In this document: positions 342 to 16,543 of the stretch, one piece after another
How positions within the stretch are numbered: the first letter of the stretch is position 1
How the letters are laid out: each line of letters opens with the position of its first letter
NCBI GenBank assembly: GCA_028286645.1
Contig: JAQBRF010000002.1
Span: 122,518 to 186,517, forward strand
Direction: 5' to 3'
DNA: 64,000 nucleotides
Origin: Candidatus Nomurabacteria bacterium
GTDB lineage: Bacteria > Patescibacteriota > Minisyncoccia > Phycocordibacterales > UBA5272
Notes under the pieces: model-generated
What the model was told of the DNA's origin: nothing
Seen by the model: only the letters and a program-made list of their open reading frames with translations
Database searches by the model: none
Position numbers and translations under genes: made by a program

Positions 342-2225
342 TTAATCCCCGCTTCTTGAAGAAGTATTATTAGTATTGTTTCGGATCCCTTCTTGCCTAA
401 TTCTTTCTTCTTCTTGGGCTCTTATTTGATCGCAGCTACTTCTAAAGACCGGAATATTTCCGTTTGGACCTAAATCATCCGATACCGTGCTTTTATATAA
501 AATATAGTCACCCTGTCTTGCGGGTGCGGAAACAGCCGTCGGAAGGTTCTCACGGTCTACTCTATTTTGATAGACGCTAAATATGGTTGATATTTCTTGA
601 GAAGAATTTGAAGCTCTTACCTGGCTAAGAGTGTTATTGATAAGTTCCCTTGTTACGTTTATTTTAGACATCTCGGTAGAGATGGAGGTTCTTAAAGAGT
701 CGGTGGCGGATTTTTTAGAAGAATAATATGCATTAAATGAGGTTATGCTGGCATTTCCGCTTATATTTGGGTAATCTCGCACTAGTCCGTCATAACAAGA
801 CTTAAGTGTTTCTAATTGGGAGGCATATCCATTTATTTCTCCCAAATAGTTCTGTTCTGTGGTTTGAAGATCACTGAGAGCGTTTAAATGTGATGTAAGA
901 TTTCTCTCTATAGGAGAAAGAAGGTTTGCCTTTCCTTGAGGATTGTTTGCCAAATCACGAACTGGAGTTGAAGATGCTATTGTGGCAACTGTTCCATAAG
1001 AGTTTATAGATCCGTATACCCCAGTAGTTCCAGATCTAGTCGGGGTGCCGGTGTTGATAATGCTGCTGATGCTGTTTAATAAACTTACAGTAGTAAAAGC
1101 AGTGCTTACCAAGGATCCCGCCCCTGTTCCGAAAGATGCCTGAAGAGTTCTTAATGGAGATACTATAGATTCCTCATATAATGTTTTAAGAGATCCCGCC
1201 GACTTTGTGATGCTTTCTCGTAAACAGGGCAAAGGATTTGAAAACGTCGTGGAGTTTTCAGTCTCTGAGGGTAAATCCGTACTGTCATTTAATTGGATGT
1301 CTGATTCGGACGGTAAAGTGGTGTCCCCGCTTCCGTCATTGGACGCGAACTGGTCACAACTTGTTTCGCTCTTTATTCCTCCTCCAATTGCCAACTCCTC
1401 CTTCTTCGTTTGCACCACTTTTGTAATTTGCTCATTTACTGCTATTTGGGCTAGTTGAGCCCTTGTATAAATATTATCTCCAGAAACATTAGCCAAAAGT
1501 GCGTCCCAGCCACCAATATCCGGACGTTGTATATTAATGTTATTTAATCTTTGAGCAAGGGTAGAGTCCTTAGTGGGGTCTCCTTTACAAAGACTGTCGA
1601 AGATCTCACTTCTTCTTTTGTTGTATGCATCAATTTCTATGGCGCCATCATTAGCATTTGCCACATCTTGTTCGGCTAACCTTGTGAGAGCTTCTTCTGA
1701 GCAGGCGTTTTTTTGAACAGTCGAAGGAATAGACGATTGGCTTAAAGCGTTTATTTTAGAAGCGGTAGTATTATTTTTATATTTATTCACAACAGAATTT
1801 AAAATACTGTTTCCATAAATACTGTTTTGGGGTACTTGGCTTAGAATTCCTCGAACTGCATTATTTTGGACATTGGCTAAATATTGTTCCGGATTTGTTA
1901 TAAGCAAGGCCTTGTTTCCGAGACTCCCTAAAATTAAATTTTGTATTTGATTGCCCGACTGCATTATCATCATAAGGGTAAGAGCGTCTCGAAGAGGAAT
2001 AAGGACATTACTGTTTACTGTGGCAAGAGTTTGTTGGGTGGCCGTAATGATGTTGGCGTTTGAGCTTACCAGGTCTGCCGCGTAGTCTTTTGTCATGAGG
2101 GCGTACTTTATCAAGTCTTGCATCCACGTGGCGCAATTTGTACAAGTAAGTTGAGCATATGACATTTGAAATCCCCCAAGGAAAATGATGAAGGCTAGAC
2201 CGAAAGATGAAATTCTTTTTCTCAT
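342..2225 (-). CDS. Large secreted Ser/Thr/Asn-rich hypothetical protein (627 aa)
   Basis: ORF track. N-terminal signal peptide MRKRISSFGLAFIIFLGGFQMSYAQ. Long low-complexity S/T/N-rich regions. No recognisable catalytic motif. Confidence 0.6.
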   Translation of the reverse strand: MRKRISSFGLAFIIFLGGFQMSYAQLTCTNCATWMQDLIKYALMTKDYAADLVSSNANIITATQQTLATVNSNVLIPLRDALTLMMIMQSGNQIQNLILGSLGNKALLITNPEQYLANVQNNAVRGILSQVPQNSIYGNSILNSVVNKYKNNTTASKINALSQSSIPSTVQKNACSEEALTRLAEQDVANANDGAIEIDAYNKRRSEIFDSLCKGDPTKDSTLAQRLNNINIQRPDIGGWDALLANVSGDNIYTRAQLAQIAVNEQITKVVQTKKEELAIGGGIKSETSCDQFASNDGSGDTTLPSESDIQLNDSTDLPSETENSTTFSNPLPCLRESITKSAGSLKTLYEESIVSPLRTLQASFGTGAGSLVSTAFTTVSLLNSISSIINTGTPTRSGTTGVYGSINSYGTVATIASSTPVRDLANNPQGKANLLSPIERNLTSHLNALSDLQTTEQNYLGEINGYASQLETLKSCYDGLVRDYPNISGNASITSFNAYYSSKKSATDSLRTSISTEMSKINVTRELINNTLSQVRASNSSQEISTIFSVYQNRVDRENLPTAVSAPARQGDYILYKSTVSDDLGPNGNIPVFRSSCDQIRAQEEERIRQEGIRNNTNNTSSRSGD

Positions 2226-2229
2226 ATGA

Positions 2230-3156
2230 TTATTTTATAGTATATCCTACGGTGAACTCGTAACCAGCATCTTTAGAAGAAAAGACCACATTTTTAGCAT
2301 TAAAGTATTGTGTAAAGACTTCATGCAATCTTATGTCCATTGTGACAATATTTTGATAATCCCCCATTGCGATGGTGGCTCGAATAGAATCTGATTTTGC
2401 TTTAGATAGATTATCCAGATTATCCCTGTAAGCGGCTACCCGGTTAATCGCAAGGAGATGATATGTTAAAGCAGAAGGAGGAACAGGCATATCAAGGAGT
2501 TTTTTAAGTAAATCATCTACCCTGTTTTTATTATTTACAATAGAAGAAAGATCTGTTTCATTTTTGGTCTGAGTGAAAGAATTTATAGCCGTTAAGTCAT
2601 CGGTAAGTACTTTTTTAGTGATCAGCTGCTGTAATATTGGAGCGATTTTATTCCCGTAAGCCTTTAATGTGGCGCTATCATCCGCCACTCCCACATGCAG
2701 ACTGTCTGTTGTATAAATAGTCGGTACTATTTTAGCCGCTTCTTGTGCCACAAGCTGGTCTAATACCTGTTGTTGGGAGCCCTGATCAGTAATCTGATTT
2801 TGTTTTAGATAATTAGCGGAAACATATAGGTTTTTGGTAAATGAAGCCGTCAAATTATTTGAATCATTTAATTCTGCAATAGCCTTAGGGTCCACTGGGG
2901 TATTTTGTACGTCAGTATTTCCTGATTTAAATGTTTCGTTTACTATTTCATTCCAGCTTAAAGCTCCATCATTGTTTATATCTGTCGCAATCTGATAAGG
3001 AGAAGAAACATCATTTAAGTCAAGCGTAGGATTACTATATCTCACAGGATGGATGCCAAACCACCTAGAGGGTATTAAGGAAACAAGCAAAATAAATACA
3101 ATTAAAAATCCTACCCCAAGAAGGGGGCGCAAATTATTTCTATCTGTCGGGTTCAT
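2230..3156 (-). CDS. Membrane-anchored hypothetical protein (308 aa)
   Basis: ORF track. A single N-terminal TM helix (LLGVGFLIVFILLVSLI) followed by a polar extracytoplasmic domain. 4 bp downstream of the 627-aa secreted protein gene, same strand. Confidence 0.55.
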   Translation of the reverse strand: MNPTDRNNLRPLLGVGFLIVFILLVSLIPSRWFGIHPVRYSNPTLDLNDVSSPYQIATDINNDGALSWNEIVNETFKSGNTDVQNTPVDPKAIAELNDSNNLTASFTKNLYVSANYLKQNQITDQGSQQQVLDQLVAQEAAKIVPTIYTTDSLHVGVADDSATLKAYGNKIAPILQQLITKKVLTDDLTAINSFTQTKNETDLSSIVNNKNRVDDLLKKLLDMPVPPSALTYHLLAINRVAAYRDNLDNLSKAKSDSIRATIAMGDYQNIVTMDIRLHEVFTQYFNAKNVVFSSKDAGYEFTVGYTIK

Positions 3157-6083: not shown

Positions 6084-6374
6084 CTATTCGCCTTTTTTAA
6101 AGGCCTCCGCGACTTTTTTCCTAGATTCATTAAATACTTCTTCGCAATTAGGAAGCAGATGTTTTAAAGTTGTATTGTAGAAATCTTCCCCCATGTTTGC
6201 AGACGCTTGCAAGGCTTCAAACTTTTGCTCTCCTAAAATATCAAACACATCAAAGAGAAATTGTCTTTCAATTGTTTTTGCAACTTCCACCAGCATTTCC
6301 TCCCTATCTGTTTCTGGCAAGTCTTGTAAATTGAAATCCTTTATTAATTCATCACGTAATTTATTAACATCCAT
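6084..6374 (-). CDS. Small acidic helical hypothetical protein (96 aa)
   Basis: ORF track. 8 bp downstream of the 1013-aa protein gene on the same strand. Acidic, no TM, no recognisable motif. Confidence 0.45.
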   Translation of the reverse strand: MDVNKLRDELIKDFNLQDLPETDREEMLVEVAKTIERQFLFDVFDILGEQKFEALQASANMGEDFYNTTLKHLLPNCEEVFNESRKKVAEAFKKGE

Positions 6375-6382
6375 AAATTTAA

Positions 6383-9300
6383 TTATACCGCTTTTTGCGC
6401 ATTAGCTAGCGAGCTTTTTACCATAACTAAATAATCGCGAAGAGTTATGTCAGGTGGAACCGGCATATAAATTTTTGATCCTGGATTTGTGGGCAAGAAA
6501 ACCTCTCCAGTGTTTTGTGCAGCCTTTGTTGCCCATATTATTCTATTGCTTGCGCTGATTAAATCGCACGCCTGCTTTCTTTGGTCTATATTCACTCCGT
6601 CTATCTTTTCGGCAGGACCAAGGAGTGTGCTTGCTTTCATGTTTAATATATCCGGAAGCGCTGAAGTGTTTTCAGTAAAAGTGGTAAGGAAATTTTTAGC
6701 AATAGTATCTACAGTTTCATTCGGACTTTCAAATGATTTTAATATTTTCCTATTCTCGTCTGGGACGAGCATAGAATAGGTTTTCTTTGGCGCCTCTAGA
6801 GAATGTGTGGAATAATCTGGCGTAGTATTTTCTGCATCTTGTGTCATATATACCCCTCCTGCTAAAGCTGCCCCCGTTAAGACTGCAGCAGGAATTGATA
6901 CATTCCATCGAGGTACGATTGATCCCACCCTAGTCTTAAATGAGCTAAGGGTGCTAAGTAATTTATTTACTGCTTGCTTTTTCTTCTCCCACCATTCGCG
7001 TCTTTCCTCTTCGGCCAACTGATCTAATCGTAAGGCTTCCTCATTTTCTTTAATGGAAGAGTTCATTCTGGTTTCTAAACCGCTTCCCATTGGCTTATAT
7101 AATCCTGGCTGGGCAGTATCTCCCGTTGGGACTTTTCCAGTTTTATCTATTTCTAACTCCCACGCTTTCTTATTTTTTTGAGATGCATCTGCCCAGCTTT
7201 TAACATCTTTGTGCTTTCCCATTTCAGATTTTATTGCTGCTGCTCTCGCCTCTTTGTCGCGTTCATCGTACTTCTCTATTTCATGATTATAATTAAAGCT
7301 GGTGTCATCAAGGTACTTTCGACTTCCTTTCAGGGCTTGTGCTTCCTCCTTTCTAAGCCCTTTATCAGTCTTCAGAGAAGAAACCGAATCTCGTTCCCCT
7401 TCTGCCTGCTTTAAGCCAAGCTCCTTTTGAAGCTCTGGACTTATCTTTTCACGGATCATGTCCGCATTATTTATCATAGTGAACTGCACGGCTCGTTTGA
7501 GTTCTTCCTCTCCTGGTCGGAATGTTTTATTCGCATATATCTCTACATACTTTTGAGGATTTCTTAAAACCATCTCCTGATGTTTCGCCAGAATCTTTTC
7601 AAAATCCTCCTCTCCTTCTTTAAATAATGCCTCCTCATTTTCTTTCGCCATCCTTTCATCTCTGTCAGCTTTTTCTTCTAATGTAATAACCGTTCCGTCA
7701 GAAAGGCCGATAGATCCGACAGGGATAGCTACTGTGGTTCTTGGAATCTTCAGTCTGGGTGCCCCCCAGCGAGAACGTCTGTCTTCATCTAACTTTTTCC
7801 ACATGTCGGTCACAGATGATTTTAATTTCTCCGGAGGCGCCTGATTATATGTTGCCCCCACTAAACTTGATGGGTCCACTTGCGCGGTAGGCGCCTCTTT
7901 ATTTGAAGCAACTTGTCCTGCGTAAAGCTTCATAAAGTCTTCGCCACAGTTAGCTGCGCCCGCAAAATCAAACTGATTAAGAAGGTTTAAGATTTCATTT
8001 TTTTTCTCAATAGACTCTCTCGATTCTGCTCCCCTGGCCTTGATCGTCTTAAATTCTATTATTGCATTCCGAGCGATTTTGTATAATTTTAATTCTTCTG
8101 GAGTTAAATCTATCCACGCTCCTGTCTCGGCATCTATTTTATGTACGCCTGTTATATCTTCAACCACACAAACGCCATCCACGGTATCATCTTTTGGAGA
8201 TGGCGCCCCACGACGGAGTACTTCTAGGTTTAGCTCCGCAAGCGCCTTTTTTTCTTTATTGCGATTTTCTATCATTTCATGCAACTTCTTTGCAACGTCT
8301 TTTCCTTTCTTAAACTCTCCTGCCTCAAGCGCTTTTACTAAACTATTTTTTACCTCGTGATACATATGATAAGCCAGGTGAATTATTTGCTGCTTCTCGG
8401 GTGTATCTGCCGCAGTCAAAACATCATATTCCTTTATTATGGAAAGTATATTTGCATACTCGGCGTCTGTAAGTTCTTCGTCTGGAGTGAGCTCTTTTGA
8501 TCCTCTTTTCCCGCCACCAAAATACCATTTTCCATCTCTTTTAAAAATTCTCAATTTTGTTTTCTTAGATTTTTCTACGCTGGATTCTGGCGTCTTATCT
8601 TTTTGCTCTTTATCAGTAGCCTCTTCTTCAGTATCTTCATCCTCTTCACGGCTTCTGTAATATTCAATAAACTTAATTAGTTCTTTACGAAAGACTGCTG
8701 CATTTTCAATTTCTCCATGCTTAATAGCAAGTACAAGATTTTTCTTGGCCTTGATTAAGTCCCCATAAAGATAGCTGTCCCATGCCTCTGCTCCCGTTAT
8801 GTAGTTCTCACTTATAAAGTCTTTATATTTTTTTAAAGCCTCTCTAGATTCCGGAATCTCTTCCCGGCACATTTCCTGATTATTGAATTTAATCCACCCC
8901 TCCCTCCTCTTTCCTTTTCTACCTCTACTCTTTTTGTATGAGTAAACCTCCCTGCCTTTCCGCCCTTCGGACTTTATATGTAATGTAATACTTAAAAGCT
9001 GTTTCCTTTCTTGGCTTGATAAGGGTCTAAACCTTTCCTCACGTTCTCTTTCTTGATCAGGGAAAACATGCCCGGCTGGGGTGGAAGAGGGTTTGTTACG
9101 AAGGCTCTCGAGTTCTTCCATCGCTTTCTTTGCAAGGAGTTTAGCCTCCTCCACTTCTCTTATCAGCTTAATATTTTCTTCTGTAGTTAATTTCATCCCC
9201 CTTTCTATTTGATCCAAAAGGTCAACAGTTAATCCCTTTTCTTCTGCCTTTGTACCCAAGGCCAGTCTTCGGGCAATCAAAGTTTGAATTTCTTTTTGTT

Positions 9301-9424
9301 TCTCAAGATCTTTGGGTTTTATGTCATCCCCTCCCACGCGAAGTTTGTTAGGAGAAAATGAGCCAGGAGTTTTAGATGGAGGGCCAGAAGAATCTGGGCC
9401 TCCTGAAGTAGGTTCATCAGCCAT
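6383..9424 (-). CDS. Large highly charged hypothetical protein (1013 aa) with one C-proximal TM helix
   Basis: ORF track. About 800 aa of K/E/D-rich, probably coiled-coil cytoplasmic region. One TM (IPAAVLTGAALAGGVYM) followed by a C-terminal domain of about 190 aa. No signal peptide and no known catalytic motif. Confidence 0.7.
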   Translation of the reverse strand: MADEPTSGGPDSSGPPSKTPGSFSPNKLRVGGDDIKPKDLEKQKEIQTLIARRLALGTKAEEKGLTVDLLDQIERGMKLTTEENIKLIREVEEAKLLAKKAMEELESLRNKPSSTPAGHVFPDQEREREERFRPLSSQERKQLLSITLHIKSEGRKGREVYSYKKSRGRKGKRREGWIKFNNQEMCREEIPESREALKKYKDFISENYITGAEAWDSYLYGDLIKAKKNLVLAIKHGEIENAAVFRKELIKFIEYYRSREEDEDTEEEATDKEQKDKTPESSVEKSKKTKLRIFKRDGKWYFGGGKRGSKELTPDEELTDAEYANILSIIKEYDVLTAADTPEKQQIIHLAYHMYHEVKNSLVKALEAGEFKKGKDVAKKLHEMIENRNKEKKALAELNLEVLRRGAPSPKDDTVDGVCVVEDITGVHKIDAETGAWIDLTPEELKLYKIARNAIIEFKTIKARGAESRESIEKKNEILNLLNQFDFAGAANCGEDFMKLYAGQVASNKEAPTAQVDPSSLVGATYNQAPPEKLKSSVTDMWKKLDEDRRSRWGAPRLKIPRTTVAIPVGSIGLSDGTVITLEEKADRDERMAKENEEALFKEGEEDFEKILAKHQEMVLRNPQKYVEIYANKTFRPGEEELKRAVQFTMINNADMIREKISPELQKELGLKQAEGERDSVSSLKTDKGLRKEEAQALKGSRKYLDDTSFNYNHEIEKYDERDKEARAAAIKSEMGKHKDVKSWADASQKNKKAWELEIDKTGKVPTGDTAQPGLYKPMGSGLETRMNSSIKENEEALRLDQLAEEERREWWEKKKQAVNKLLSTLSSFKTRVGSIVPRWNVSIPAAVLTGAALAGGVYMTQDAENTTPDYSTHSLEAPKKTYSMLVPDENRKILKSFESPNETVDTIAKNFLTTFTENTSALPDILNMKASTLLGPAEKIDGVNIDQRKQACDLISASNRIIWATKAAQNTGEVFLPTNPGSKIYMPVPPDITLRDYLVMVKSSLANAQKAV

Positions 9425-9760
9425 ATATGTGACAAGTATACTTTATTTACAACGTTTTTGGCCGTTTTCTCCACATATTTTCTTATTGTTGTCCAGTTGC
9501 CAGCGTCCCACTCATTTGCTACCATATATAAGTACAAACACCCTGATTATTTTAATAATAATTATTTCGAAATAACTGATTTATATTAGTTAACTCCAGA
9601 CACTTCCTAGCTTGTACAACCTAAGAAAAAACATATCGCAGTAGATATTCCCAAACGTTTATTTAAAACGTCATATATCGTAATCGCTCTAGTTCTGTTT
9701 TTCGCGATTTTACAGCCCCGTATAACGTACGCAGGTTTTTTCTCTGATTTTACTAGTAAG

Positions 9761-10863: not shown

Positions 10864-11262
10864 ATGCAAAAAACTGATAAATTTTCCTTTATTTTAAAAC
10901 CTTCAACTATTCCAAATGCTGGAGTTGGAGTATTTGCTCTTCATGATATAGATAAAGATACGTACATGGAATTATTTCTTCCTGACTTTGAAGAAGAGAT
11001 TTTAGATATAAAGGATATCCCCGAAGAACTTCAAATGTACTGTTTAGATAGACAAGATGATAAATTACAATGTCCAAAGTATTTCAATCGAATGGATATA
11101 GGAAATTATCTAAATCATTCCGAAAATGCCAATTTAAAATGGGAAGAAGGAAAAGGAAAAGGATATTTTGCTAGTCGGAATATTAAAAAAGGAGAAGAGC
11201 TATTTTCAAACTATAAAGAACTTGGGGAGCCAGAAAATAAAAGAGACAATTATATTGCTTAG
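10864..11262 (+). CDS. SET-domain protein (putative protein-lysine methyltransferase)
   Basis: GVGVFA matches the GxG motif. NHSENAN matches NHSxxPN. GEELFSNY matches the GEELxxDY C-terminal SET signature. The 132-aa length fits minimal bacterial SET proteins. Confidence 0.55.
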   Translation: MQKTDKFSFILKPSTIPNAGVGVFALHDIDKDTYMELFLPDFEEEILDIKDIPEELQMYCLDRQDDKLQCPKYFNRMDIGNYLNHSENANLKWEEGKGKGYFASRNIKKGEELFSNYKELGEPENKRDNYIA

Positions 11263-13677: not shown

Positions 13678-14298
13678 TTAAACTTTATCTTCCCCAGTGA
13701 ATATACCTAAATCTTCATCAGAAAACTCTGAAGTCTTTGACGAGTCAGGCTTCTTTGAAGTTCCTTTTCTTTTCGGTCCACGATGAGATCTATAACCGAT
13801 TAGGAATTTCTCGGGAGTGTCGCACATATCAATAAAGTCTTCACATGCTTCTCGCAATTTAGTTGATGAAGAGCGTCCGAATGAAATTACTTCAACCTGC
13901 ACGCCGAAATGTTCTTTTAAGAAGTTTACAAGCGGTACGAAGTCCCCATCCCCAGTGGCCAACACTATAGTATCGACTTTTGGAGCAAGTCGTATAGCGT
14001 CCACTGCCAGTCCGACGTCCCAGTCCGCTTTTTTACTGCCGCCGTAGAAAATCTGGAGATCCTTAGTCTTGGTTTCTATTCCAAGCTTAGTAAGCGCTTC
14101 AAAGAAGTTGGTTTCATCCCCTGCTTCGGTGGTAATTACGTATGCAAGAGCGCGGATTAGCTTTCGCTTTCCGACGGACGCACTCATCACTTCCCCGAAG
14201 TTTACTTTTGAGTTATATAAATTTTTTGCACTGTGGTATAGATTTTGAGTATCTATAAATACTGCGACACGCTGGTCGCCATGTTTTATTACTGACAT
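13678..14298 (-). CDS. NYN/LabA-like (PIN-fold) domain protein
   Basis: VAVFIDTQNLYHS and IVLATGDGDFVPLV are typical of the LabA/NYN (DUF88) family. Confidence 0.75.
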   Translation of the reverse strand: MSVIKHGDQRVAVFIDTQNLYHSAKNLYNSKVNFGEVMSASVGKRKLIRALAYVITTEAGDETNFFEALTKLGIETKTKDLQIFYGGSKKADWDVGLAVDAIRLAPKVDTIVLATGDGDFVPLVNFLKEHFGVQVEVISFGRSSSTKLREACEDFIDMCDTPEKFLIGYRSHRGPKRKGTSKKPDSSKTSEFSDEDLGIFTGEDKV

Positions 14299-15601: not shown

Positions 15602-16543
15602 ATGGACTCCCTTTTATCCCTAAAACAAGATTTTCTACAATATATTGAAATAGAAAAAGGAAGAAGTGCTCTAACTGTGCGAAATTATGATCATTACTTG
15701 AATCGCTTCCTGGAGTTTAGTAAAACAGACTCCCCTACTGAGATCACCGATCAGATGATGCGAGGTTATAGGGTGTATTTAAATCGTCTAGAAGCCAGAA
15801 AGCCGAAAAAAGGCCAAGCTGTAGAAACTTTAGATAAAAAGACTCAAAATTATCACTTGATAGCTCTTAGAGCTTTTTTCAAATATATGCGTAAACGTGG
15901 CGTGAAGTCGTATGATCCTGAACAGATAGAGCTTGCTAAAACTGGCGAGCGGGAATTAGATCTGATAAGCGACAAAGAATTAAATGAGCTTCTTAATGCG
16001 CCTGACCTTTCAAATATTTCTGGTCTTCGAGATAAAGCCATCTTAGAATTATTTTTCTCAACAGGCTTGCGTGTTTCTGAATTGTGTTCTCTTGATCGGG
16101 ACATGGATTTAACTAACGGAGAGATTTCTGTCCGAGGAAAGGGGGGGAAAATCCGCGTGGTATTTATTTCTGGAAGCGCTCGGGACGCGGTAAAGAAATA
16201 TATATCTTCTCGCGTTGATATTGATGAGGCTTTATTTATCGATCATTCCCCTCGCGCTCATTCTCGTATGGTGAAGGAAGAGTCGGTACGTCTCACTCCC
16301 CGATCTGTGGAAAGAGTAGTGAACAAGTACGCCGCTATTGCGGGGATTGCCAAGAAATGTACTCCCCACATAATTCGCCACAGCTTCGCGACAGATTTGC
16401 TGTATAACGGAGCAGACCTTCGTACGGTACAAATGATGCTTGGGCATGCCTCTATCGCCACTACGCAGATTTATACTAATGTGACGAACAAATTCCTCCG
16501 TGATCAGTATGAAAAGTTTCATTCGAAGCGTGGGAAGAAATAG
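15602..16543 (+). CDS. Site-specific tyrosine recombinase, XerC/XerD family
   Basis: N-terminal SAM-like domain. Catalytic region ...HIIRHSFATDLLYNGADLRTVQMMLGHASIATTQIYTNV includes the active-site Tyr. Confidence 0.85.
   Translation: MDSLLSLKQDFLQYIEIEKGRSALTVRNYDHYLNRFLEFSKTDSPTEITDQMMRGYRVYLNRLEARKPKKGQAVETLDKKTQNYHLIALRAFFKYMRKRGVKSYDPEQIELAKTGERELDLISDKELNELLNAPDLSNISGLRDKAILELFFSTGLRVSELCSLDRDMDLTNGEISVRGKGGKIRVVFISGSARDAVKKYISSRVDIDEALFIDHSPRAHSRMVKEESVRLTPRSVERVVNKYAAIAGIAKKCTPHIIRHSFATDLLYNGADLRTVQMMLGHASIATTQIYTNVTNKFLRDQYEKFHSKRGKK

What the first reader, a model, noticed from the sequence alone, without database searches (positions are those of the whole stretch)
6084..9424. 1013-aa hyper-charged single-pass membrane protein with a 96-aa acidic partner
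The large ORF has no signal peptide. About 800 residues of K/E/D-rich, coiled-coil-like sequence precede a single TM helix and an extracytoplasmic C-terminal domain of about 190 aa. No catalytic motif is recognisable. A small acidic helical protein follows 8 bp downstream on the same strand, a chaperone-like or immunity-like arrangement. This is the largest gene in the window and is functionally opaque. It could be an envelope-spanning scaffold or a cell-cell attachment component. The divergently transcribed LysM-M23 peptidoglycan hydrolase next door hints at a cell-wall connection.
Basis: partly seen in the sequence, partly recalled or inferred. Interest (0 to 1): 0.6.

Follow-up and report, generated by a model that had tools for sequence, protein, structure and literature searches.

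The report
Fast-evolving orphan modular protein with partner
The two genes are real and always occur together in a small group of ultra-small (Paceibacteria) bacteria, but the large protein is a fast-evolving string of undescribed modules that probably sits inside the cell with its small partner rather than spanning the envelope, and its job is still unknown.

Summary
Both ORFs exist as described: 1013 aa at 6383-9424(-), 96 aa at 6084-6374(-), 8-nt gap, largest gene in the window. The window comes from a Candidatus Nomurabacteria MAG.

The pair sits at one fixed site (ComM / LysM-M23 <-> big-small-UvrD-KsgA) in all 36 related species genomes found.

The large protein matches no Pfam, NCBIfam, PHROG, PADLOC or PDB entry. 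A HMMER search of 1.84 billion proteins found five relatives.

It is not a long coiled coil. It is a mosaic:
- N-terminal short motifs (PG[TS]F, VGGE[LIV]K)
- three ~95-aa repeats
- a central domain
- a weak Gly/Ala-rich hydrophobic stretch
- a 115-aa helical C-terminal domain, confidently modelled, with no fold match in PDB or BFVD

Orthologs range from 372 to 1787 aa. One species pair is 34% identical in this protein where UvrD is 98% identical.

The proposed topology is doubtful:
- The hydrophobic stretch scores like soluble proteins of the same window.
- It has been lost repeatedly while the C-terminal domain stays conserved.
- That domain is a separate signal-less ORF in two lineages.
- It is fused to the small protein in one species.

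The small protein weakly resembles DUF5663.

Best reading: a lineage-specific cytoplasmic, perhaps membrane-associated, modular hub plus partner. Function is unknown.

The parts
9435..9476 (-). Conserved upstream DNA element, TGTGGAGAA-N-AAAAACGTTGTAAATAAAGTATACT. It is promoter-like and contains the palindrome AGTATACT. It ends about 10 nt before the ATG.
   Evidence: It is nearly identical in about 30 of 37 related loci. It occurs once per locus and always lies 5' of the large gene or its first part. It is unique in the window. It has no Rfam match. Promoter function is inferred only.
6383..9424 (-). Large ORF, 1013 aa (JWN37_163, Candidatus Nomurabacteria MAG)
   Evidence: Positional orthologs of 372-1787 aa occur in all related loci.
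9215..9376 (-). N-terminal motif region, residues 17-70: KTPGSFSPNK, LRVGGDDIKPK, LIARRLALGTKAEEKGLTVDLL
   Evidence: G[TSIVA]F lies in the first 130 residues of 33 of 39 family proteins. Together with a strict second motif it occurs in 15 of 39, against 0.045 in shuffles.
8657..8908 (-). Repeat module copy 1, residues 173-256
   Evidence: Iterated HMM on the family: 1-6 copies per protein in 23 of 40 proteins. Alignment A2.
8264..8557 (-). Repeat module copy 2, residues 290-387. This is the weakest copy; only its last helix passes the HMM threshold.
7916..8173 (-). Repeat module copy 3, residues 418-503. This is the best-conserved copy.
   Evidence: The stretch 194-533 that contains the repeats is what the HMMER search of 1.84e9 proteins recognises.
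7400..7723 (-). Central conserved domain, residues 568-675, including NPQKYVEIYANKTF
   Evidence: Iterated HMM hits 21 family proteins strongly, plus one marginal hit, out of about 43.
6845..6901 (-). Gly/Ala-rich uncharged hydrophobic segment, residues 842-860. This is the 'TM' of the finding.
   Evidence: KD19 is 1.58. An equivalent segment lies 28-81 aa before the C-terminal domain in 22 of 32 orthologs. It is absent or reduced to ~10 aa in most of the rest.
6404..6751 (-). C-terminal helical domain, residues 892-1007
   Evidence: HMM found in 34-35 of about 43 positional orthologs. AF2 with a 25-sequence alignment gives pLDDT 85.2 and pTM 0.79. No Foldseek match in PDB or BFVD.
6375..6382 (-). 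8-nt spacer between the two ORFs
   Evidence: The spacer is 1-16 nt in nearly all orthologous loci. Translational coupling is inferred.
6084..6374 (-). Small acidic helical protein, 96 aa (JWN37_162), weakly DUF5663-like
   Evidence: 35 homologs at 58-73% identity, all 94-101 aa. Alignment A1. 6 of 18 members give collinear sub-threshold hits to PF18908.

Best explanation
The locus encodes a two-protein unit specific to one clade of Paceibacteria (Nomurabacteria-like CPR bacteria).

The large protein is a modular hub. Most of its length drifts almost freely in sequence and length. A few islands are held constant:
- short linear motifs at the N-terminus
- one to six copies of small folded modules (here three ~95-aa hairpin-plus-helix repeats)
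- a central domain
- a C-terminal 115-aa helical domain

I infer that the C-terminal domain and the small acidic protein act together in the cytoplasm as the conserved core. I also infer that the N-terminal motifs recruit a conserved client at the other end of a long flexible spacer.

The Gly/Ala-rich hydrophobic stretch is an optional element. It may hold the complex at the membrane, but it is not a compartment-separating anchor that the system needs.

Shown: the anatomy, the conservation pattern, the gene fissions and the fusion, and the lack of any known homolog.
Inferred: cytoplasmic location, physical binding of the C-terminal domain to the small protein, and the scaffold role.
Not established: the cellular process served.
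For: - Pair and position are conserved in 36 of 36 species loci and in metagenome loci.
- Conserved islands are defined by iterated HMMs: repeats, central domain, C-terminal domain and N-terminal motifs.
- Plasticity is extreme. Length ranges from 372 to 1787 aa. In the pair L019/L035 identities are: ComM 97%, M23 93%, UvrD 98%, KsgA 94.5%, small 78.5%, large 34-37%. No blastn similarity is found across ~2.1 kb, while the flanks are 85-89% identical.
- Other members carry different modules: beta modules, winged-helix-like modules, and a PP2C domain at 24.3 bits against a cut-off of 20.3.
- Evidence for a cytoplasmic C-terminal domain:
  (i) The hydrophobic segment is missing or vestigial in about 9 of 32 orthologs. 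Their C-terminal domains score among the best. The losses are scattered over a UvrD tree.
  (ii) The domain core is its own ~110-aa ORF, with no hydrophobic N-terminus. It has a real stop, a spacer of varying length and an ATG. This occurs in L028, L033/L059, L053 and L057, and independently in L052. The break always falls between helix 1 and helix 2.
  (iii) In L036 the domain is fused in frame to the small protein and the hydrophobic segment is gone. That exact 266-aa protein is held by NCBI, JGI and Logan.
- The window's own segment scores within the soluble range of this genome.
Against: - 22 of 32 orthologs do have a 14-25-residue uncharged segment. Several reach TM-like hydrophobicity (KD 1.9-2.1).
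- Flanking charges follow the positive-inside rule for N-in/C-out: K+R 106 on the N side against 73 on the C side, and D+E 40 against 75. A true membrane-spanning helix in those species is therefore not excluded.
- No dedicated topology predictor could be run.
- The fusion is seen in one species only.
- No direct evidence exists for binding between the C-terminal domain and the small protein, or for any client of the N-terminal motifs.
- 'Scaffold' is a default reading for modular, partly disordered proteins, and nothing ties the pair to a process.
Confidence: 0.4

Rival explanations
1. A bitopic N-in/C-out membrane protein has a large cytoplasmic region coupled to an extracytoplasmic C-terminal domain. 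That domain contacts the cell wall or another cell, possibly working with the neighbouring LysM-M23 hydrolase.
For: - A hydrophobic segment sits at a fixed position in 22 of 32 orthologs, with basic residues and Trp on its N side and acidic residues on its C side.
- The M23 gene is divergent and adjacent in all loci.
Against: - The segment is marginal in the window protein.
- It has been lost repeatedly with the C-terminal domain retained.
- Signal-less stand-alone C-domain ORFs occur in two lineages.
- The domain is fused to the cytoplasmic small protein.
- The M23 adjacency is part of a fully conserved ~12-kb block, so it is not specific.
- The domain has no similarity to known wall-binding folds.
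Confidence: 0.2
2. A nucleoid or DNA-transaction tether. The hub links DNA or DNA-repair/uptake proteins (operon partner UvrD/PcrA, nearby ComM) to a cellular site.
For: - The small gene is followed after 24 nt by uvrD on the same strand, with no terminator-like site predicted on that strand.
- Outer-clade relatives carry winged-helix-like modules, with weak hits to Ribosomal_S25 and MksE.
Against: - The winged-helix hits are sub-threshold and absent from the window protein.
- Synteny with uvrD and comM is block-wide.
- No DNA-binding or ATPase motif was found in 20+ family members scanned.
Confidence: 0.1
3. An exported, host- or competitor-directed effector with a dedicated small acidic chaperone. 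The conserved N-terminal motifs would serve as a non-Sec export signal, and the variable body would be under diversifying selection.
For: - The architecture matches: a large variable protein plus a small acidic adjacent protein.
- Conserved motifs sit in a disordered N-terminus.
- The divergence rate is extreme.
- The lineage is thought to be episymbiotic (general knowledge).
Against: - No secretion-system genes were seen in the parts of the conserved block that were annotated.
- The fusion links the small protein to the C-terminal domain, not to the N-terminus.
- Synonymous sites between the compared genomes are saturated, so the divergence is also explained by weak constraint (my estimate).
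- There are no toxin or enzyme domains apart from one PP2C.
- It is absent from phage and viral collections.
Confidence: 0.08
4. A polymorphic toxin with a downstream immunity protein, or an anti-phage defence pair.
For: The gene arrangement, a large variable gene followed by a small one.
Against: - The small protein is much more conserved than the large one.
- The most conserved part of the large protein is its C-terminus, which is the opposite of polymorphic toxins.
- The pair is single-copy and fixed in a housekeeping block.
- No meaningful PADLOC hits: none for the window proteins, only two weak partial hits (16-19 bits) for relatives. No PHROG hits.
Confidence: 0.02

Closest known systems
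Pfam PF18908 (DUF5663), for the 96-aa protein
   Same: Similar length: the profile is 84 positions. In 6 of 18 family members the match is collinear and nearly full length, residues ~10-88 against profile 1-80.
   Different: All hits are below the curated threshold: 13.6-15.1 bits against 23.7, with E 0.02-0.1. The window's own protein gives no DUF5663 hit at E<=10. DUF5663 itself has no known function, and the held literature does not mention it.
Bitopic morphogenetic landmark proteins (MapZ/LocZ of streptococci, RodZ)
   Same: Works-like analogy only, based on general knowledge of these proteins. Both have a long, partly disordered cytoplasmic N-terminal region, one hydrophobic segment and a C-terminal domain.
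   Different: No sequence or profile similarity. The hydrophobic segment is dispensable across orthologs, and the C-terminal domain is probably cytoplasmic. There is no HTH as in RodZ.
HubP/FimV-type polar hub proteins
   Same: Analogy, based on general knowledge of these proteins. Both are very large hubs of variable length, built of repeats and acidic low-complexity linkers.
   Different: HubP/FimV have an N-terminal signal peptide, a periplasmic LysM domain, a TM and a cytoplasmic C-terminus. None of these is present here. No Pfam LysM or FimV hit was found.
Effector plus small acidic chaperone pairs (type III class I chaperones, type VI Eag, type VII LXG-Lap)
   Same: Gene arrangement and the charge and size of the small protein.
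   Different: No homology. No secretion apparatus was seen in the annotated parts of the conserved block. The small protein is linked by fusion to the C-terminal domain rather than to the N-terminus.
SMC/SbcC-type coiled-coil ATPases (one source labels an ortholog 'SbcCD ATPase subunit')
   Same: Length and K/E-rich helical stretches.
   Different: No Pfam or NCBIfam ATPase hit. By eye I saw no Walker A motif. There is almost no heptad signal.

Membership tests
DUF5663 (PF18908), small protein | Score at or above Pfam's gathering threshold (23.7 bits) against the family HMM | tested here: not met
   Best hit is 15.1 bits. 6 of 18 homologs give E 0.02-0.1. The window protein gives no hit.
DUF5663 (PF18908), small protein | Collinear match over most of the profile | tested here: met
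   Residues 10-91 match profile positions 1-83 of 84 in four of the ten members scanned individually. This suggests a remote relationship only.
Single-pass (bitopic) membrane protein, N-in/C-out | One hydrophobic helix of TM-like hydrophobicity | tested here: inconclusive
   KD19 is 1.58 and the summed Hessa scale is about +4.3 kcal/mol for 842-860. TM anchors in the same window score 2.0-3.1 and soluble proteins reach 1.75. Some orthologs reach 1.9-2.1. No dedicated predictor was available.
Single-pass (bitopic) membrane protein, N-in/C-out | Anchor conserved among orthologs, with the C-terminal domain always behind it | tested here: not met
   The anchor is absent or vestigial in about 9 of 32 orthologs. 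The domain is a stand-alone signal-less ORF in two lineages. It is fused to the cytoplasmic partner in one species.
Long coiled-coil proteins (SMC/SbcC/EzrA-like) | Extended heptad periodicity; for SMC/SbcC also Walker A/B ATPase head motifs | tested here: not met
   One ~30-aa heptad stretch, barely above shuffles, using a home-made score. No ATPase family hit.
Polymorphic toxin / immunity pair | Variable C-terminal toxin domain with a co-varying, poorly conserved immunity gene; an N-terminal trafficking domain | tested here: not met
   The C-terminus is the best-conserved part. The small gene is 58-73% identical across the clade. No trafficking or toxin domain was found.
Anti-phage defence systems (PADLOC) | Match to a PADLOC model | tested here: not met
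   No hit for either window protein. Only weak partial 16-19-bit hits for two relatives.
UVR-type helical hairpin (an idea I had by eye for the repeat's 'AL..GDF..A' helix) | Match to Pfam UVR (PF02151) in the repeat units | tested here: not met
   UVR is not among the families listed for the 36 repeat units at E<=10. All 25 of 39 families shown matched only one unit each, so no family recurs.

The most novel reading that the evidence does not exclude
The pair is a host-directed effector system of an episymbiotic CPR bacterium. The large, fast-diverging mosaic protein would be exported by a non-Sec route, recognised through its conserved N-terminal PG[TS]F / VGGE[LIV]K motifs. The small acidic protein would be its dedicated chaperone. 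The optional hydrophobic segment would serve for insertion into a target membrane.
Probability: 0.08. Interest if true: 0.8.

Novelty: categorically new. Interest (0 to 1): 0.4.

Why it matters
Candidate Phyla Radiation bacteria are full of lineage-specific genes of unknown role, and very few have any dissected anatomy. This cassette now has several defined features:
- a fixed chromosomal address
- a near-invariant upstream DNA element
- conserved motifs and modules
- a confidently modelled domain with no fold match in the two libraries searched
- natural gene fissions and one fusion that indicate which parts work together

That makes it a tractable target for interaction modelling, heterologous topology tests and metatranscriptomics.

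If it proves to be an organiser of cell architecture or a host-interaction factor, it would fill a gap in how these minimal cells are built or attach.

'Categorically new' here means only that every test against known families failed. No new mechanism has been demonstrated. The sequences are already in public databases as hypothetical proteins.

Tried and rejected
- Word-index homolog search with the full protein found only itself. With the C-terminal-domain alignment it returned nothing, not even the window protein, so it is uninformative.
- Single-sequence AF2 of the full protein gave pLDDT 43. I used it only as a rough secondary-structure guide.
I solved this by registering orthologs through exact look-ups.
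- UVR-like hairpin idea for the repeat: no support.
- Small protein as a stand-alone copy of the repeat or of the C-terminal domain: hhalign probability below 1%.
- Homology of the outer-clade C-terminal tail to the C-terminal domain: hhalign 27%, E 7e-4, inconclusive.
- The conserved upstream element as an upstream ORF (MWRS..K.L*): rejected. Third codon positions are invariant, and the start and stop are not conserved.
- The same element as a known RNA: no Rfam hit.
- The splits in L028 and L033 as sequencing frameshifts: rejected. Four species show a real stop, spacers of different length and an ATG.
- Recombinational allele replacement as the cause of the divergence: not needed. Synonymous sites of the flanking genes are already saturated (my estimate). 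Positive selection and weak constraint cannot be told apart here.
- Phage or mobile origin: no hits.
- Literature: nothing on DUF5663 or on this cluster.
Full report
**1. What is there**

The window holds ORF 6383..9424(-) of 1013 aa. Eight nucleotides downstream on the same strand lies ORF 6084..6374(-) of 96 aa. Both are recorded as hypothetical proteins JWN37_163 and JWN37_162 of a Candidatus Nomurabacteria MAG.

The large ORF is the longest in the window. It has 34% charged residues and net charge -2. The window mean is 25.5% (sd 6%), which makes it third highest rather than an extreme outlier. Its N-terminus is polar and has no signal peptide. The small protein is acidic (net -9).

uvrD/pcrA starts 24 nt after the small gene. 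ksgA and two Pfam-less genes follow on the same strand. A LysM-M23 peptidase gene lies divergently upstream, followed by a SET-domain gene and comM.

**2. No known relatives**

The large protein has no significant match in any library tried:
- Pfam, NCBIfam and PHROGs gave nothing significant, and PADLOC gave no hit.
- PDB sequences gave nothing.
- Phage genomes and viral contigs gave nothing.

A full HMMER search of 1.84 billion representative proteins found five relatives, with E from 5e-12 to 1e-4. All matched through residues ~194-533. Sixteen further family members scanned against Pfam were blank. One outer-clade member has a PP2C phosphatase domain.

**3. The pair is conserved, at one address**

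The small protein has 35 homologs at 58-73% identity, all 94-101 aa.

A scan of 185,579 species genomes with its alignment found 36 loci, all Paceibacteria-type MAGs. Every one has the same block: ComM / M23(-) / large / small / UvrD / KsgA / hyp308 / hyp627. In nearly all, a large ORF ends 1-16 nt before the small gene. Metagenome contigs add 24 more loci of the same kind.

Because the whole block is syntenic, the adjacency to LysM-M23 says nothing specific about function.

**4. Anatomy of the large protein**

Iterated profile searches within the family define the following parts:
- (a) An N-terminal motif region. PG[TS]F is present in 33 of 39 proteins. It is followed by [VI]GGE[LIV][KR] and an ELGxLAxxAGIxI-like segment. 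The combination occurs in 15 of 39 proteins, against 0.045 in shuffles.
- (b) A ~95-aa repeat: a beta-hairpin, then helix 'W..I...L..Y..FIN', then helix 'LI.LKN.IL.AL..GDF..A'. There are 1-6 copies per protein and three copies here.
- (c) A central ~108-aa domain containing 'NP..Y.EIYA.K.F'.
- (d) A Gly/Ala-rich uncharged segment (842-860 here).
- (e) A C-terminal 115-aa domain (892-1007), found in 34-35 of about 43 positional orthologs.

None of (b), (c)... more precisely, neither (b) nor (e) has a Pfam or PDB-sequence match. The central domain (c) was not searched separately.

AF2 on (e) with a 25-sequence alignment gives a confident all-helical model (pLDDT 85.2, pTM 0.79). Foldseek finds nothing in PDB (best E 2.1) or BFVD (best E 0.55).

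My crude heptad score finds almost no canonical coiled coil.

Other family members substitute different modules:
- beta-rich units in L019, L035 and L021
- winged-helix-like units, and a two-gene layout, in L038-L042
- PP2C in L040

**5. Evolutionary behaviour**

Ortholog length runs from 372 to 1787 aa.

In the closely related pair L019/L035 the identities are:

| Protein | Identity |
|---|---|
| ComM | 97% |
| M23 | 93% |
| UvrD | 98% |
| KsgA | 94.5% |
| small protein | 78.5% |
| large protein | 34-37% |

blastn detects nothing across ~2.1 kb of the large gene, while the flanks are 85-89% identical.

The flanking genes differ by about 15% at the DNA level but only about 2% at the protein level, so synonymous sites are saturated (my estimate). 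The large gene's divergence therefore fits very weak constraint outside the conserved islands. Diversifying selection is neither needed nor excluded. The reading frame is nevertheless kept open in essentially all species, so the gene is functional.

**6. Topology: the key correction**

The window's hydrophobic segment has KD19 of 1.58 and a summed Hessa value of about +4.3 kcal/mol. Real anchors in the same window score 2.0-3.1, and soluble proteins reach 1.75.

Across orthologs:
- 22 of 32 have a 14-25-residue segment, located 28-81 aa before the C-terminal domain. Their flanking charges suit an N-in orientation.
- About nine have none, or only ~10 residues. Their C-terminal domains are nevertheless among the best-scoring. 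These cases are scattered over a UvrD neighbour-joining tree, which implies several independent losses.
- In L028, L033/L059, L053 and L057, and independently in L052, the domain core is a separate ~110-aa ORF with no hydrophobic N-terminus. It is preceded by a genuine stop, a spacer of 7-22 nt (an ATGA overlap in L052) and an ATG. The break always falls between helix 1 and helix 2. Helix 1 remains on the tail of the upstream protein, after its hydrophobic segment.
- In L036 the hydrophobic segment is gone and the domain is fused in frame to the small protein. That exact 266-aa product is on record from NCBI, JGI and Logan.

The small protein never has an export signal. The simplest reading is that the C-terminal domain and the small protein work together in the cytoplasm. 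On that reading the hydrophobic stretch is an optional membrane-association element, not an obligatory transmembrane divider. A true TM in some species is not excluded.

**7. The small protein**

It has no PDB match. It is not related to the repeat or to the C-terminal domain. Six of 18 homologs give collinear, near-full-length but sub-threshold hits to DUF5663. That family has no known function and does not appear in the held literature.

**8. Mechanism proposed**

I propose a lineage-specific modular hub. Its conserved core is the C-terminal domain plus the small protein. Conserved motifs at the far N-terminal end recruit a client. A freely evolving spacer of exchangeable modules lies between them.

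Confidence is 0.4 for the architecture and location, and lower for the scaffold role. The process served is unknown.

Rivals, with confidences:
- bitopic envelope-spanning protein: 0.2
- DNA-transaction tether: 0.1
- exported effector plus chaperone: 0.08
- toxin/immunity or defence pair: 0.02

**9. Verdict**

This is a real, conserved, previously undescribed cassette, with three new conserved modules and a domain that has no fold match in the libraries searched. It is not a long coiled-coil rod, and it is probably not envelope-spanning.

It is new because nothing known matches, not because a new mechanism has been shown. Interest is moderate.

Noticed in passing
window 9435-9476 (- strand); same position in L001-L042: A ~42-nt element (TGTGGAGAAGT-N6-AAAAGTCTTGTAAATTAAAGTATACT, containing the palindrome AGTATACT) is conserved almost base for base upstream of the large gene in about 30 of 37 loci. 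It occurs once per locus with fixed internal spacing. It is more conserved than the gene it precedes. It has no Rfam match. It may be a promoter plus operator.
   Followed up: partly
window 10864-11262 (+): A SET-domain gene (Pfam E 2.5e-12) sits between M23 and comM only in this window. tblastn finds it in none of the 37 related loci. One relative has a histidine-phosphatase gene at that spot instead.
   Followed up: partly
window 342-3156 (-): Two Pfam-less genes (627 aa and 308 aa) are syntenic in nearly all relatives that extend that far, but only 24-49% identical. The 308-aa protein has a strong N-terminal TM (KD 2.66). They are a second pair of fast-evolving orphan envelope proteins in the same block.
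   Followed up: no
L040:7393-9999, also L065 and L066: In an outer-clade relative, the protein occupying the position of the large gene carries a PP2C/SpoIIE-type phosphatase domain (24.3 bits, above the cut-off). This is the only recognised enzymatic module in the family.
   Followed up: partly
L038-L042: In these relatives the large gene is represented by two consecutive genes. The N-terminal part carries the PG[ST]F motif in L039 and L040. The second part has a strong TM and a ~195-aa tail. Both parts are built from winged-helix-like units separated by Pro/Thr/Ala-rich linkers.
   Followed up: partly
P0037, C-terminus: The protein ends in CLLYTSPSPRD. This is the translation of the Nextera adaptor CTGTCTCTTATACACATCTCCGAGCCCACGAGAC, so that database entry is truncated by untrimmed adaptor.
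   Followed up: yes
P0047, P0034; L009-L042 record titles: Source annotations are unreliable. One ortholog of the large protein is named 'SbcCD ATPase subunit', and one ortholog of the small protein 'biotin synthase-like enzyme'. Many MAGs are titled Saccharibacteria or Gracilibacteria, although their ComM and UvrD are 62-83% identical to this Nomurabacteria window.
   Followed up: no
window 13678-14298 (-), 15602-16543 (+): A NYN-domain protein gene and a tyrosine recombinase (Xer-like) gene lie a few kb from the locus. I saw no link to the finding.
   Followed up: no
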